From the NCBI GenBank assembly GCA_964016885.1, contig CAXHJY010001357.1, forward strand, positions 1-35,683: a stretch of DNA of 35,683 bases. The letters run 5' to 3'. The DNA comes from Eledone cirrhosa. Taxonomy: Eukaryota. A program made the position numbers and the translations under genes. Shown here one piece after another: positions 401 through 17,059 of this stretch (position 1 is the stretch's first letter; the number at the start of each line of letters is the position of its first letter). The notes beneath the pieces are model-generated. The model did not search any database, had not been told where the DNA came from, and saw nothing but the letters and a program-made list of their open reading frames with translations.

Positions 401-581
401 TGTAGGAGGTGAGTTTTATTGTAGTACAATAAAGCAATGCAGATATCGGATAAGAAGCACTCTACAGTTTGTGGGACTGGAGTATGCATAATATAAGATC
501 AAAAGATGGTTAAAGGAGTTCCATATATTTTATTAATAAAATATATGGAACTCCTTTAACCATCTTTTGATCTTATATTAT
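401..581. mobile_element. Foldback insert A: ~87-bp tail plus perfect 94-bp palindrome, flanked by (TA)n
   Basis: 488-581 is a perfect palindrome centred on TTAA (533-536). 401-487 is single-copy. (TA)n lies on both sides. Mobile origin is inferred. Confidence 0.7.
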
Positions 582-841
582 ATATGTATATATATATCTA
601 TATATATATGTATATATATATCTATATATATATATATATATGTATATATATATCTATATATATATATATGTATATATATATCTATATATATATGTATATA
701 TGTATATATGTATATATATATATATATATATATATATATATATATATATATATATATATATATATATATATATATATATATATATATATATATATATATA
801 TATATATATATATATATATGTGTGTGTGTGTGTGTGTGTAT
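582..841. repeat. (TA)n then (TG)n microsatellite
   Basis: Read directly from the sequence. Confidence 0.97.
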
Positions 842-1383
842 AAAAGAAATAGGATTTCGCTTGAAGCATAGCTTGATACAATATGTATAAATATTTCGTA
901 TCTCCAAAGAAATACGGTTTTAGGAAGCCGTATCTCTGCAAACACCGGTGTTTGTTTAAAAGTGTAATAGATTCCTAAAAGAGAGTTATTTCTAGATAGT
1001 TAACTTTTGCTGTTCTCCACCGTCATTTTACAGTTGGAGTCTAAATAATGTTTAATGTTTGATTTAGTACAGACAATTTATCCAATAAAAACTATCAGTG
1101 AAATATTTAATTATGGAAGACTTGAAAATATGAAAATAGATCAAATGAACGCAAGCGAAACTAAGCAAATAAATTTATAAATGGACAAGTTAGAGATCAC
1201 AACTCCGATGTTACGGACATGTGTTTCGAATATTTCTGGAAAGAATCGATATGGGGTTCATTCGAAGGGTCTTGGGAGTAATCCTACTCGGTAATGTGCC
1301 TAGCTAGGTATCAGTGAGTTGCTGAGGGTAGAGCCGCTACATGTGTATATATATATGTGTGAGTGTATATATATATATATATA

Positions 1384-1616
1384 ATGTATAATAAACGATA
1401 CAATATAATTACCTCATTACCAGAGGTTTCCCGAATAAGGCGAATACGAAAGAAACGTCCTCATTCGTTTATTTCGTATTCGTCTTATTCAGGAAACCTC
1501 TGGTAATGAGGTAATTATATTGTATTGTTTATTATACATAACATTTTGCTCTGGTACTTACATAGAGCACTCTTCACTCCTATGACTTTTTCAATTCCAA
1601 CGGAAACTTCAATACC
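1384..1616 (+). mobile_element. Foldback insert B: 68-bp-arm hairpin plus ~77-bp tail, flanked by (TA)n
   Basis: Arms 1384-1451 and 1472-1539 are reverse complements with few mismatches. The loop contains GAAACGTC (1452-1459). Tail 1540-1616. (TA)n on both sides. Confidence 0.7.
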
Positions 1617-1665
1617 TATATATATATATATATATATATATATATATATATATGTATATATATAT

Positions 1666-1728
1666 GCCGTCTAACCCATGCTAGCGTGGAAAATGGACGT
1701 TAAACGAAGATGATGATGATAATGATAT
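1666..1728 (+). mobile_element. 3' tail of a retroposon (SINE/RTE-type) ending in (GAT)n
   Basis: CCCATGCTAGCGTGGAAAATGGACGTTAAACG followed by (GAT)n. Resembles, from recall, a common cephalopod retroposon 3' end. Confidence 0.5.
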
Positions 1729-1853
1729 ATATATTAAGAATACATTGATTGCCAAATATATTAACTATGGAGATATAAAAGATACAAGAGAGAAAACCAA
1801 TCCAAACGAAGCAGTGAGTGTCTTCTATTATTATTTCTGCCAATATTAGAACA

Positions 1854-1950
1854 ATATGACCTACCCCAAATATAATATAGCCGTTTTGATGACTATTTCT
1901 GGACTGAAATAGCTGTCGAAACGGCTTGAGCTCTGCCGTCGGGGTCATAC
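1854..1950 (+). ncRNA. Degenerate type I hammerhead-ribozyme-like motif
   Basis: tTGATGA (1886-1892), stem II CTATTTC/GAAATAG, GAA (1918-1920), stem III ACGGC/GCCGT, then C1940 (GUC site). Core C3 is T, a CTGTC extra sits before GAA, and stem I is displaced. Confidence 0.5.
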
Positions 1951-2049
1951 TGTTTCCTATATCCACTCTACTACACTAAGTATTGAGTACTTTGGTGCGT
2001 TATGGTCCATCTGGTTCCTTACCACAACTCCTTCGTTATATATATATAT

Positions 2050-2158
2050 AAATCCCGCCGAGGTTAACTTTGCCTTTCATCCTTACGGGGTCGATAAAAT
2101 AAAGTACCAGTAATGTACTGGTTAATTTCTGGCCTTGTGCCTAATGTAGAAACAGTTA
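2050..2158 (+). mobile_element. tRNA-derived SINE, 5'-truncated at the B box
   Basis: AAATCCCGCCGAGGTTAACTTTGCCTTTCATCCTTACGGGGTCGATAAAATAAAGTACCAG...GGCCTTGTGCC, matching the other copies in the window. Confidence 0.9.
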
Positions 2159-13907: not shown

Positions 13908-13914
13908 CCCGCTA

Positions 13915-15012
13915 TGATGGCGACATTGCCAAATATGGTGTTGGTGTTGTTGTTGTTGTTGTTGGTGACGACACTGCCTAATATGTTGATACTGTTGGTG
14001 GTGTTGTTGTTGTTGTTGGTGGCGACACTGCCAAATATGGTGTTGGTGTTGTTGTTGTTGTTGTTGTTGGTGACGACACTGCCTAATATGTTGACACTGT
14101 TGTTGTTGGTGGTGGTGGTGGCGACACTACCTAATGTGGTGATGGTGTTGGTGGTGTTGTTGTTGTTGGTGGCGACACTGCCTAATATGGTGTTGGTGTT
14201 GGTGGTGTTGTTGTTGTTGGTGGCGACACTGCCTAATATGTTAATACTGTTGTTGTTGTTGTTGGTGGCGACACTGCCTAATGTGGTGATGGTGTTGGTG
14301 GTGTTGTTGTTGTTGGTGGCGACACTGCCTAATATGTTAATACTGTTGTTGTTGTTGTTGGTGGCGACACTGCCTAATATGGTGTTGGTGTTGTTGTTGA
14401 AGTGACACTGCCAAATATGGTGTTGGTGTTGTTGTTGATGGCGACACTGCCTAATATGGTGATGGTGTTGTTGTTGTTGATGGCGACACTGCCTAATATG
14501 GTGTTGGTGGTGTTGTTGTTGTTGATGGCGACACTGCCTAATATGTTGATACTGTTGGTGTTGTTGTTGAAGTGACACTGCCAAATATGGTGTTGGTGTT
14601 GTTGTTGATGGCGACACTGCCTAATGTGGTGTTGGTGTTGTTGTTGATGGCGACACTGCCTAATATGGTGTTGGTGTTGTTGTTGATGGCGACACTGCCT
14701 AATATGTTGATACTGTTGTTGTTGTTGTTGGTGGCGACACTGCCTAATATGTTGATACTGTTGTTGTTGTTGTTGGTGGTGGTGGTGGCGACACTACCTA
14801 ATGTGGTGATGGTGTTGGTGTTGTTGTTGATGGTGACACTGCCAAATATGGTGTTGGTGTTGTTGTTGATGGCGACACTGCCTAATGTGGTGATGGTGTT
14901 GGTGTTGTTGTTGGTGACACTGCTAAATATGGTGTTGGTGTTGTGGTGATGGTGTTGGTGTTGTTGTTGGTGGCGACACTGCCTAATGTGGTGATGGTGT
15001 TGTTGTTGTTGT
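13915..15012. repeat. Minisatellite GGCGACACTGCCTAATATG + (GTT/GGT)n, variable ~36-55 bp unit
   Basis: Constant anchor with variable trinucleotide linkers, roughly 25 copies. Confidence 0.95.
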
Positions 15013-15848
15013 AGGAGCGGTGTTACTTCGCTCGATGTTTAAGCCACTATCACGTGACAGCTGACTTAACGGAGGGGCGGTGTATTCCGTCTATGTTTTA
15101 TGTAGAAAATAATGTTAAACACAAATTAATGTTCAAATATTTGGGCCAAAATCCCCAAATAATGATGAAACGAAGCTATCGAATACCTTCGATCGTTTTC
15201 CCAATCACTCAATAATTAAGTCAGTATCATTAAGATACCAGTTACAGGAGACCAGGGTGTATACTAATACGTTATATATATATATATATATATATATATA
15301 TATATATATATATATATATATATATATACGTATTAATTATAGTTGATTTAGGAGTTGCAGAAACCGAATGCTGGATATTACCAACCTTCCAGGGGGTCCG
15401 GGTATAATTTTCAATCATATTTTATTTGTTTGACCCCCGAATTACTTGGTCGTTTCTATGGCTGTGCGGATAATGGTTTAACCATCGTCTCAGTGTGTTT
15501 GCCCTTTTAACTTATGTTGTAGCTCTAGTTCTAATTTCCAATAGCCGAAATACGATTCTCGCTAATTTATATATATATATATATATATATATATATATAT
15601 ATATATATATATATATATATATATATATAATGTCAAGTATAAATAATGTAGTGATAATATATCGTCACGTTAGAGATGAACAGCGTACGTGTAGGTTTGC
15701 TCAACGAGAATAAATTATATTCCGGAGAAAATGTAGAAAAGATGAATATAAAATGAAAGTGCTTTTATAAAGGAATTTATTAGGTATTGACATATGTTTC
15801 TGTAACAGACGGAATACCTATGTATCGCTGCTTGCGTAATCATATAAT

Positions 15849-15951
15849 TGTTTCTACTTTAGGCACAAGGCCAGCAATTACCCAGTGCATTACTGGTACT
15901 TTATTTTATCGACCCCGTAAGGATGAAAGGCAAAGTAAACCTCGGCGGGAT
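15849..15951 (-). mobile_element. SINE, 5'-truncated, 17-bp TSD
   Basis: TTGCGTAATCATATAAT at 15832-15848 and 15952-15968. Confidence 0.93.
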
Positions 15952-16338
15952 TTGCGTAATCATATAATGTTAGCAAGTATTTGATAGCAAATGTATAATC
16001 AGTTGTCACTTCTTCAGAGATATTGGATAAATTGCAAAAAATCAGAAAAATTAAAGTATTTATATTAGTTGTAAGAAAGGAAGAAGAGAAGGGATAGTAT
16101 ATGACAGATGGCAATTCAATTTGCTGGTAAACAAGTATATAGAAGGTTTTTAATGAGAATACCATGAGTATATGGCTTATTTTATCTAAATAAGAATTTT
16201 TGGGAGTGCCTATTTCAATCTATATTTGACCAATTGAACAATGGACAGGGCTGGTCGTTTGGTGTAGTAGTATTAATACAGGAGTGACAACTGATTATAC
16301 ATTTGCTAACGAATACTTGCTAACATTATAAAATAAAG

Positions 16339-16553
16339 GGCGGTGGATTGGCCGTATCGGTAGAGGGTCGGACGCCATGCTTTGTCGCATAGAGTTACGG
16401 CCCTTTATGATCTGAGTTCAAATCCCGCCGAGGTTAACTTTGCCTTTTATCCTTACGGGGTCGATAAAATAAAGTGCCAGTCAGGCACTGGGGTCGATTT
16501 CATCGACTTTTCCCTCCCCCCAAAGTTGCTGGCCTTGTGCCTATATAAGAAAC
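16339..16553 (+). mobile_element. Full-length SINE (long-tail subtype), 15-bp TSD
   Basis: Head GGCGGTGGATTGGCCGTATCGG (A-box-like) and B box GAGTTCAAATCC. TSD CATTATAAAATAAAG at 16324-16338 and 16554-16568. Confidence 0.95.
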
Positions 16554-16557
16554 CATT

Positions 16558-16622
16558 ATAAAATAAAGTACCAGTAATACACTAGGTAATTGCTGGCCTT
16601 GTGCCAAAAGTAGAAACAATTA
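16558..16622 (+). mobile_element. SINE 3' fragment, inverted counterpart of the 15849-15951 copy
   Basis: Same 3' junction (GAAACAATTATATGATTACGCAAG) as the left-arm copy. Confidence 0.88.
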
Positions 16623-17059
16623 TATGATTACGCAAGCAGCAATACATAGGTATTCCGTCTGTTACAGAAACATATGTCAATACCTAATAAATTCCTTTAT
16701 AAAAGCACTTTCATTTTATATTCATCTTTTCTCTCTCTCTCTCTCTATATATATATATATATGGTGGCTGCCAACTCGTTTTCGAGTACGGCCACTACTT
16801 TATATCCATGTAGGAGAACCCCTACCGATGCCCTGAACAAGTGTGACTTTTTAGTCCAGCCAGCGACTTGAAAACTCTGGTACAAACACTACACTTGTGA
16901 CAATTATTGATACATAGTGCTGGGCCCTTGGTACCAGGTGACGACAAGTGCAGAGAGATCTCCAGATATAAAGCAATGCCTGTGCCGTGAAGCTTTTAAA
17001 GTGAGCAAAGGCACTGCACAAAGCCAGTCCCACTCTCTTAACCAAGATGATATTTACCA

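What the first reader, a model, noticed from the sequence alone, without database searches (positions are those of the whole stretch)
401..16732. Four unrelated inserts share one architecture: microsatellite - tail - long inverted repeat - microsatellite
Seen: A (401-581), B (1384-1616), C (9506-9917) and D (15629-16732) have no obvious sequence similarity. Each is an asymmetric foldback with a 77-106 bp single-copy extension on one arm only, and each sits between microsatellite tracts, mostly (TA)n. This differs from a MITE, whose TIRs are terminal on both sides. Established: Penelope-like elements (PLEs) leave inverted, 5'-truncated pLTR copies with a tail on one side, carry hammerhead ribozymes, and some clades favour microsatellites. 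Inference: these are several short (TA)n-targeting PLE-derived families made by fold-back or template-switch reverse transcription, and they may seed or expand the TA tracts.
Basis: partly seen in the sequence, partly recalled or inferred. Interest (0 to 1): 0.75.

Follow-up and report, generated by a model that had tools for sequence, protein, structure and literature searches.

The report
Twin-primed Penelope retrotransposon stubs
These four hairpin-shaped inserts between TA repeats are cut-short ends of Penelope-type jumping genes (three protein-coding families and one small repeat with a predicted self-cutting RNA), a known pattern that is common in this genome; each pair likely forms when both ends of a DNA cut start copying one RNA at two fixed sites.

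Summary
A, B and D are 3' ends of three Hydra-clade PLE families: long copies elsewhere carry the RT plus C-terminal endonuclease ORF with the clade's motifs. C is a closed 552-nt non-coding unit with a type I hammerhead, retrozyme-like. The architecture is genome-wide (33 cases in 520 kb sampled blind), so four in this window is ordinary (P=0.19). It is published, as is the origin of the tail (two internal RT starts). Copy statistics add a mechanism. Resolved inversions pair one tail end with one inner end (A 43, C 18; none tail-tail). The tail-less arm often reaches further 5' (A 19 vs 2 of 41), which excludes simple fold-back for those copies. Both arms share one template (0.8% vs 3.8% divergence). 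A has a fixed 5' stop followed by an extra C, a likely cap mark. An RCTC..GAGY hairpin covaries across 18 of 47 tail clusters. Twin priming on one RNA is the best reading. Seeding of TA tracts was not shown. The scan found this architecture, tail rule and hairpin before on other DNA.

The parts
1..400 (.). degenerate (TA)n tract, left flank of A
401..487 (-). A tail (87 nt), between the inner and outer ends of family A; outer end at 401
459..483 (-). A tail hairpin, ACTC..GAGT type
488..534 (-). A tail-bearing arm; stops within 1-2 nt of the predicted hammerhead cut
535..581 (+). A tail-less arm; same 5' stop, ends at the inner site against (TA)n
582..819 (.). (TA)n tract, right flank of A
1384..1464 (-). 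B tail-less arm
1465..1539 (+). B tail-bearing arm; holds only the 3' half of the hammerhead (GAAA, stem III, cut site at 1493-1505)
1540..1616 (+). B tail (77 nt) with GCTC..GAGC hairpin at 1548-1568
1617..1665 (.). (TA)n tract, right flank of B
9473..9505 (.). (TA)16 left flank of C
9506..9609 (-). C tail (104 nt in the family) with GCTC..GAGC hairpin at 9561-9593
9610..9776 (-). C tail-bearing arm; stops 275 nt from the tail end, short of the hammerhead
9776..9917 (+). C tail-less arm
9918..10360 (.). (TA)n-rich tract, right flank of C
15568..15628 (.). (TA)31 left flank of D
15629..15734 (-). D tail (106 nt); strict hairpin motif not met
15735..16279 (-). D tail-bearing arm, to the family's hot-spot stop 532 nt from the tail end; hammerhead-like half-cores at 16011-16017 and 15789-15800
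15849..15954 (+). SINE fragment inserted in D's left arm with a duplication of about 15 bp
16280..16732 (+). D tail-less arm (element sequence at 16280-16330 and 16619-16732)
16331..16618 (-). nested SINE pieces in D's right arm, at the same element site as in the left arm
16733..16762 (.). (TC)8(TA)8 right flank of D

Best explanation
A, B and D are head-to-head pairs of 5'-truncated 3' ends of three Hydra-clade Penelope-like retrotransposon families and C is the same footprint of a 552-nt non-coding hammerhead repeat; each pair likely forms by twin priming, in which the element's enzyme cuts both strands of a (TA)n tract and the two DNA ends each start copying the same RNA at a different fixed internal site. 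Shown here: family identity, two fixed ends against (TA)n, one of each end per resolved inversion, shared variants between arms, arm-length asymmetry, A's fixed 5' stop. From the literature: a PLE protein cuts and extends both strands and starts at two internal sites that bound the tail (PMC11167929). Inferred: the sites flank a protein-bound RCTC..GAGY hairpin; the cDNA from the inner site runs to the capped RNA 5' end (257 nt from A's tail end); the cDNA from the outer site must displace it and often stalls; the two cDNA 3' ends are joined by microhomology or a few added bases. C is likely mobilised in trans from a circular or multimeric RNA. Identity about 0.95; the mechanism about 0.6.
For: ORFs upstream of A, B, D with Hydra motifs (definition); B model pLDDT 92.7, top fold match telomerase, E 3.6e-9. 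A, 90 tail ends: 85 against TA, 4 internal tandem joints, 1 against TA then TG; 59 inverted, 43 end at the inner site, none at a second free tail. C, 23 junctions from 30 position-ordered hits: 18 tail+inner, 5 with one eroded end, none tail-tail or inner-inner. Tail-less arm further 5' in 19, tail arm in 2, within 9 nt in 20 of 41 A cases; 15 vs 2 when both arms are under 340 nt, p=0.002. Arms within a locus differ by 0.8% against 3.8% between loci, 18 of 18. Stop at -257 in 17 tail arms and 25 tail-less arms of 41; next base C in 20 of 39 non-G cases against 0 of 28 at other stops. Tail arms stop near the inner site in 6 of 27 (p=0.023) and in 3 of 6 strand-switch joints in raw reads. Hairpin: 12 A-T, 6 G-C, no discordant outer pair.
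Against: No RNA or biochemical data for these families. In 20 of 41 simple A inversions the arms stop within 9 nt of each other, 14 of them at the short palindrome at -257, which fold-back explains equally well. 31 of 90 A copies and 16 of 59 inversions could not be resolved, mostly long ones, so the asymmetry is measured on short copies. C shows no asymmetry (9 vs 9). Arm identity could also come from gene conversion in the palindrome. The extra-C count is imperfect: three of the 20 share one junction, several C's are also microhomology with the partner arm, 15 G cases were set aside, and the control is not strictly matched. The window near the inner site was chosen after seeing the data. 29 of 47 tail clusters, including D, lack the strict hairpin. 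No autonomous partner was identified for C. The endonuclease was called from motifs, not from a fold or Pfam match.
Confidence: 0.65

Rival explanations
1. Same elements, but the inverted arm is made by fold-back: one cDNA self-primes at a short palindrome and copies itself back, stopping before the tail (first reader; self-priming was also proposed in PMC3846280).
For: 14 of 41 simple A inversions have both arms at the palindromic -257 site, and D's hot spot is also a 10-bp palindrome. Arms are nearly identical within a locus.
Against: The tail-less arm holds sequence absent from the tail arm in 19 of 41 A and 9 of 18 C inversions. The -257 stop also occurs when the partner stops elsewhere (14 of 41, one arm only). 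Junction inserts at -257 differ between loci.
Confidence: 0.12
2. Two separate priming events on two RNA molecules or two units of a tandem RNA, held by a protein dimer, each subunit fixed to one start site.
For: Explains one end of each kind and C's symmetric reach (9 vs 9). A dimer is predicted for the anole PLE protein (PMC11167929).
Against: Two free RNAs from a 10,000-copy family should differ as loci do (3.8%), but arms differ by 0.8%. It does not predict short tail arms that stall near the inner site. RNAs made from one locus would escape the first objection.
Confidence: 0.17
3. DNA foldback elements, MITEs or Helentron-type elements with asymmetric inverted repeats.
For: Long inverted arms and a TA target.
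Against: Inversion points and arm lengths vary between copies, partial tandems occur, many copies are not inverted, and long copies run into RT ORFs.
Confidence: 0.02
4. Assembly or amplification chimeras.
For: The window is a whole 35.7-kb contig rich in simple repeats. The window's own four junctions were not checked in reads.
Against: The same ends recur at hundreds of loci on large contigs. Arms of older copies have diverged and carry later SINE insertions. Raw reads of three runs show both ends against (TA)n and some strand-switch joints.
Confidence: 0.02

Closest known systems
Hydra clade of C-terminal EN+ Penelope-like elements (Craig et al. 2021, PMC8557442; includes Hydra-1_Obim of Octopus bimaculoides)
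   Same: Single RT plus C-terminal EN ORF of about 700 aa with RWK, DKT, CxCX5C, CxxC and CxH motifs; type I hammerhead in the 3' end; (TA)n insertion; an inverted 5'-truncated copy is noted for Penelope-13_HM.
   Different: A, B and D are other families than Hydra-1_Obim (hammerhead and 3' end differ by eye). Tails are 77-106 nt against the 30-40 nt stated for PLEs. 3' UTRs are longer (A is 3.85 kb overall, the clade is described as under 3 kb). Many families and very high copy number in one genome.
Poseidon_Ac in vitro mechanism (Frangieh et al. 2024, PMC11167929)
   Same: Two internal RT starts bound the tail; both target strands cut and extended; AT-rich target; hammerhead upstream of the starts and not needed.
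   Different: Different clade; starts lie in non-coding sequence here; the parts I read leave the steps after priming open and give no rule for pairing the two ends.
Metazoan non-LTR retrozymes (Cervera and de la Pena 2020, PMC7229834; Li et al. 2026, bioRxiv 10.64898/2026.07.22.740005)
   Same: C: non-coding unit, type I hammerhead, exact head-to-tail partial tandems.
   Different: C is 552 nt (150-450 typical in PMC7229834; 51-972 in the preprint), occurs as one to about two units, and carries the full PLE footprint with inversion, tail and Hydra-type hairpin. Circular RNA not tested.
L1 twin priming (recalled, Ostertag and Kazazian 2001; not read here)
   Same: Two target ends prime on one RNA; head-to-head join by microhomology.
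   Different: L1 inversions do not duplicate sequence and the second priming site is not fixed; here both sites are fixed and the arms usually overlap.

Membership tests
Penelope-like elements (EN+) | Telomerase-like RT ORF linked to the repeat | tested here: met
   A: L123 752-codon frame, L121 in pieces; B: L203 712 aa uninterrupted; D: L122 in two frames. Top fold match telomerase. Not met for C.
Penelope-like elements (EN+) | GIY-YIG endonuclease in the same ORF | tested here: inconclusive
   C-terminal domain has the Hydra-type EN motifs by comparison with the published alignment; Pfam gave no match and the listed fold matches were all polymerases.
Penelope-like elements (EN+) | Partial tandems (pLTR), inverted 5'-truncated copy, one-sided tail | tested here: met
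Hydra clade | RWK and DKT motifs, divergent RT4 | tested here: met
   B: RWK, DKT; A: RWT, DKT; D: N-terminus not recovered, RT4 region of Hydra type.
Hydra clade | C-terminal EN with CxCX5C linker, CxxC and CxH, no CCHH | tested here: met
   A and B show all three motifs; D shows the linker with a longer spacing and a damaged C-terminus.
Hydra clade | Type I hammerhead near the 3' end | tested here: met
   One core per family, sense strand only: A stem I 8 bp, B 11 bp with the three-way junction as its lowest-energy fold, C 8 bp in L030. Rfam found none on the C unit.
Hydra clade | Hammerhead in family D | tested here: inconclusive
   Both half-cores conserved (32 matches) but 90 nt apart and without an adjacent stem I.
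Hydra clade | (TA)n insertion | tested here: met
   A 85 of 90 tail ends; D 30 of 30.
Hydra clade | Placement in the RT phylogeny | not tested
   Reference proteins were readable only as paper text; assignment rests on motifs.
Non-LTR retrozymes (for C) | Non-coding tandem unit with type I hammerhead | tested here: met
   552-nt unit; end joins start exactly; no PLE ORF continues from any of the 90 C loci fetched, duplicates included.
Non-LTR retrozymes (for C) | Self-cleavage and circular RNA | not testable with these tools
   Needs RNA.
MITE or foldback DNA element | Terminal inverted repeats at both ends with a fixed interior | tested here: not met

The most novel reading that the evidence does not exclude
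Hydra-clade PLEs integrate by obligate two-site twin priming on a single capped RNA: a conserved RCTC..GAGY hairpin, shared with coral and sea-cucumber relatives, positions the enzyme so that each cut strand of (TA)n starts at one side of it. This one step would explain the tail, the head-to-head repeat and some 190,000 hairpin stubs in this genome, and small retrozymes such as C would spread by carrying the same hairpin.
Probability: 0.45. Interest if true: 0.62.

Novelty: new member of a known kind. Interest (0 to 1): 0.36.

Why it matters
The elements and their architecture are known, so the finding as stated is ordinary. What has value is the sample size: how PLEs make inverted repeats is still called undefined in PMC8557442, and these young families give thousands of natural junctions that separate fold-back from twin priming. 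They also point to a short RNA hairpin and an uninterrupted 712-aa ORF that make the question testable in vitro. For annotation, such stubs (about one per 16 kb) can be mistaken for MITEs or microRNA hairpins; A and B score as weak microRNA matches in Rfam.

Tried and rejected
Genome search with A's 140 nt returned nothing, not even itself; a longer copy worked. Rfam listed no hammerhead among the 150 of 284 rows shown for the window and none on the C unit. Pfam and PDB sequence searches did not recognise the ORFs. The first blind scan missed A and C through a filter error and was redone. Stops at the hammerhead cut: the window's A copy, L323 and one arm of L255 stop there, but that is 2 of 41 sampled inversions, and C shows 2 of 46 stops near its cut, so cleaved RNA is at most a minor template. 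B's 30 of 30 tail+inner pairs were picked by likeness to the window copy and are not counted as a test. TA seeding: pure TA runs at 30 A tail ends have median 25 nt against 14 nt for 1,173 blind tracts, which cannot tell expansion from a preference for long targets. Sequencing runs: no RNA holder listed. Reads laid on C gave no strand-switch joints at the 20% threshold used. Naiad, Neptune, Nematis and Poseidon were rejected on domain order and motifs. No empty (TA)n sites in other individuals could be examined. Literature searches listed no paper on twin priming in PLEs or on this hairpin; subscription papers and bioRxiv supplements were not visible, and Repbase was not searchable, so these families may already be catalogued.
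Full report
Observation. All four inserts are present as described: A is a perfect 94-bp palindrome with an 87-nt tail, B has 75-nt arms (70 matches) and a 77-nt tail, C about 145-165-nt arms with a tail of about 104 nt, D arms interrupted by SINE pieces with a 106-nt tail. The window is a whole contig of a 3.0-Gb genome; the repeat content and the Argonauta-labelled homologue fit an octopod, which is my inference.

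How common. All four are dispersed repeats. Exact 34-nt tail ends number 10,019 for A and 212 for C. In 52 stretches of 10 kb taken at round coordinates on the 14 largest contigs, a scan found 33 inverted repeats with TA on one side and a 20-200-nt tail before TA on the other, against 3 symmetric ones, in 20 sequence clusters. This extrapolates roughly to 190,000 in the genome, with some false positives and misses; 2.3 are expected in this window and P(4 or more)=0.19.

What they are. Longer copies of A run into a 752-codon frame with a shifted start and an early stop (L123; in pieces in L121). Longer B copies run into an uninterrupted 712-aa ORF (L203), and D copies into RT and endonuclease-like frames (L122). 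Identities are 36% (A-B) and 42% (B-D). Pfam and PDB sequence searches were blank, but the B model (pLDDT 92.7) matched telomerase best. The motifs RWK/RWT, DKT, CxCX5C, CxxC and CxH are those that define the Hydra clade, nearly all of whose families insert in (TA)n (PMC8557442: section 11, passages, and supplement parts 1, 2, 52, 53, 54 plus two searches). C is different: a 552-nt unit whose end joins its start exactly, with no PLE ORF continuing from the 90 loci fetched, duplicates included. A, B and C each have one type I hammerhead on the sense strand, cutting 133, 110 and 293 nt from the tail end; D has separated half-cores without an adjacent stem I. In the window, A stops at the cut, B keeps the 3' half, C none, D both halves.

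Two fixed ends, one of each. I took 90 A tail ends in positional order on one contig (the first 91 listed, less one inside a stretch already fetched). 85 abut TA, 1 TA then TG, 4 are internal tandem joints. 59 are inverted; 43 of these end at an inner site about 90 nt short of the tail end (41 against TA), none at a second free tail, and 16 are long, broken or continue into another unit. 31 showed no resolved inversion (22 long, 9 short). For C, 23 distinct junctions from 30 position-ordered hits gave 18 tail+inner and 5 with one eroded end; 33 from BLAST-picked loci gave 24 and 9; no tail-tail or inner-inner pair occurred. All 30 D tail ends abut TA, and the six far ends resolved lie 104-111 nt in. 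Raw reads of three runs show loose TA at both A ends. This matches the published finding that a PLE protein cuts and extends both strands and starts at two internal RNA sites that bound the tail (PMC11167929, parts 1-2 of 4 read).

Fold-back versus twin priming. If the second arm were copied from the first cDNA, the tail-less arm could not reach further 5'. It does so by 10 nt or more in 19 of 41 simple A inversions, the tail arm in 2, and 20 are within 9 nt; among copies with both arms under 340 nt it is 15 vs 2 (p=0.002). In C it is 9 vs 9, which also excludes fold-back for half the copies and fits a template with no 5' end. Arms of one A locus differ by 0.8%, against a median 3.8% to other loci, in 18 of 18: one template, or later conversion. 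Tail arms stop 88-104 nt from the end, next to the inner start, in 6 of 27 non-hot-spot cases (p=0.023, window chosen afterwards) and in 3 of 6 strand-switch joints in raw reads, as expected if the outer cDNA meets the inner primer. Self-priming was proposed earlier from palindromes at such junctions (PMC3846280, passages) and still fits the 14 symmetric A copies.

A likely RNA 5' end. 17 tail arms and 25 tail-less arms of 41 stop 257 nt (plus or minus 4) from A's tail end, with differing junction inserts. Of 107 distinct contexts at that site, 40 continue upstream, 13 join through the shared palindrome, 15 show the templated G and were set aside, and 20 of the other 39 show C, against 0 of 28 non-G bases at other stops. 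RT adding C opposite a cap is recalled knowledge. The count has the caveats listed in the Against line, so a capped pLTR start is likely, not shown. D has a similar stop 532 nt in (6 arms at 5 of 30 loci); C has none.

The tail hairpin. 231 distinct tails from all loci fell into 47 clusters. 18 have RCTC within 18 nt of the inner end and GAGY downstream: 12 A-T, 6 G-C, none discordant (Fisher p=5e-5; clusters are related, so this overstates independence). 17 of 47 representatives carry it, against a shuffle mean of 0.48 (maximum 3), 0 on the opposite strand and 0 in the arm. A, B and C have it; D fails the strict test (0 of 7). By eye it is also in the published Hydra-2_Amil, Hydra-2_Ajap and Hydra-1_Ajap sequences, with a G-U pair in Hydra-1_Amil, partly in Hydra-1_Crog and not evidently at the 3' end of Hydra-1_Obim. 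Its role as the enzyme's binding site is inferred. That C carries it supports mobilisation in trans, in line with retrozymes as non-autonomous PLE derivatives (bioRxiv 10.64898/2026.07.22.740005, parts 1-2 of 5; PMC7229834, passages). PMC13282606 (part 1 of 3) lists 31 recently active PLE families in Octopus vulgaris without this detail in the part read.

Verdict. New families of a known clade showing a known architecture at ordinary density. Earlier notes of this scan, read after my analysis, report the same architecture, the one-tail rule and the hairpin on other DNA, and one reached the same weak verdict on stops at the ribozyme cut.

Noticed in passing
window 15849-15954 and 16331-16618; L100, L112: The abundant SINE has inserted at the same site of family D in both arms of the window copy and in 2 more of 30 D loci, with different lengths and duplications: a likely insertion hot spot between D's hammerhead half-cores.
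   Followed up: partly
window 1877-2037: Fifth PLE-type stub with hammerhead remnants and hairpin tail; its family is the commonest in the blind sample (7 of 33).
   Followed up: partly
window 17332-17767: Fragments matching another tail cluster (cluster 17), 87-93%.
   Followed up: no
window 2051-2154, 7029-7550, 9005-9337, 30362-30848: Many copies of one SINE, in tandem pieces and as an inverted cluster at 30368-30848.
   Followed up: no
window 2279-4114 and 23656-29821: Minisatellites: 68 bp x 27 copies (94%) and 35 bp x 177 copies (93%).
   Followed up: no
window 10886-13130: 2.2-kb stretch repeated in the blind sample, probably a LINE fragment; not identified.
   Followed up: no
tail clusters 4, 6, 9, 11, 12, 15, 16 (e.g. 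L136:1524, L131:2565): Other families with the same footprint but shorter tails (29-79 nt) and no RCTC..GAGY hairpin; possibly Naiad or other PLE clades.
   Followed up: no
L121, L123: Family A has an Asn-rich linker between RT and endonuclease and about 220-bp tandem repeats of varying number in a 1.5-kb 3' UTR.
   Followed up: no
L301, L305, L092: Three loci share the same A junction 271 nt in, suggesting that an inverted stub was itself recopied.
   Followed up: no
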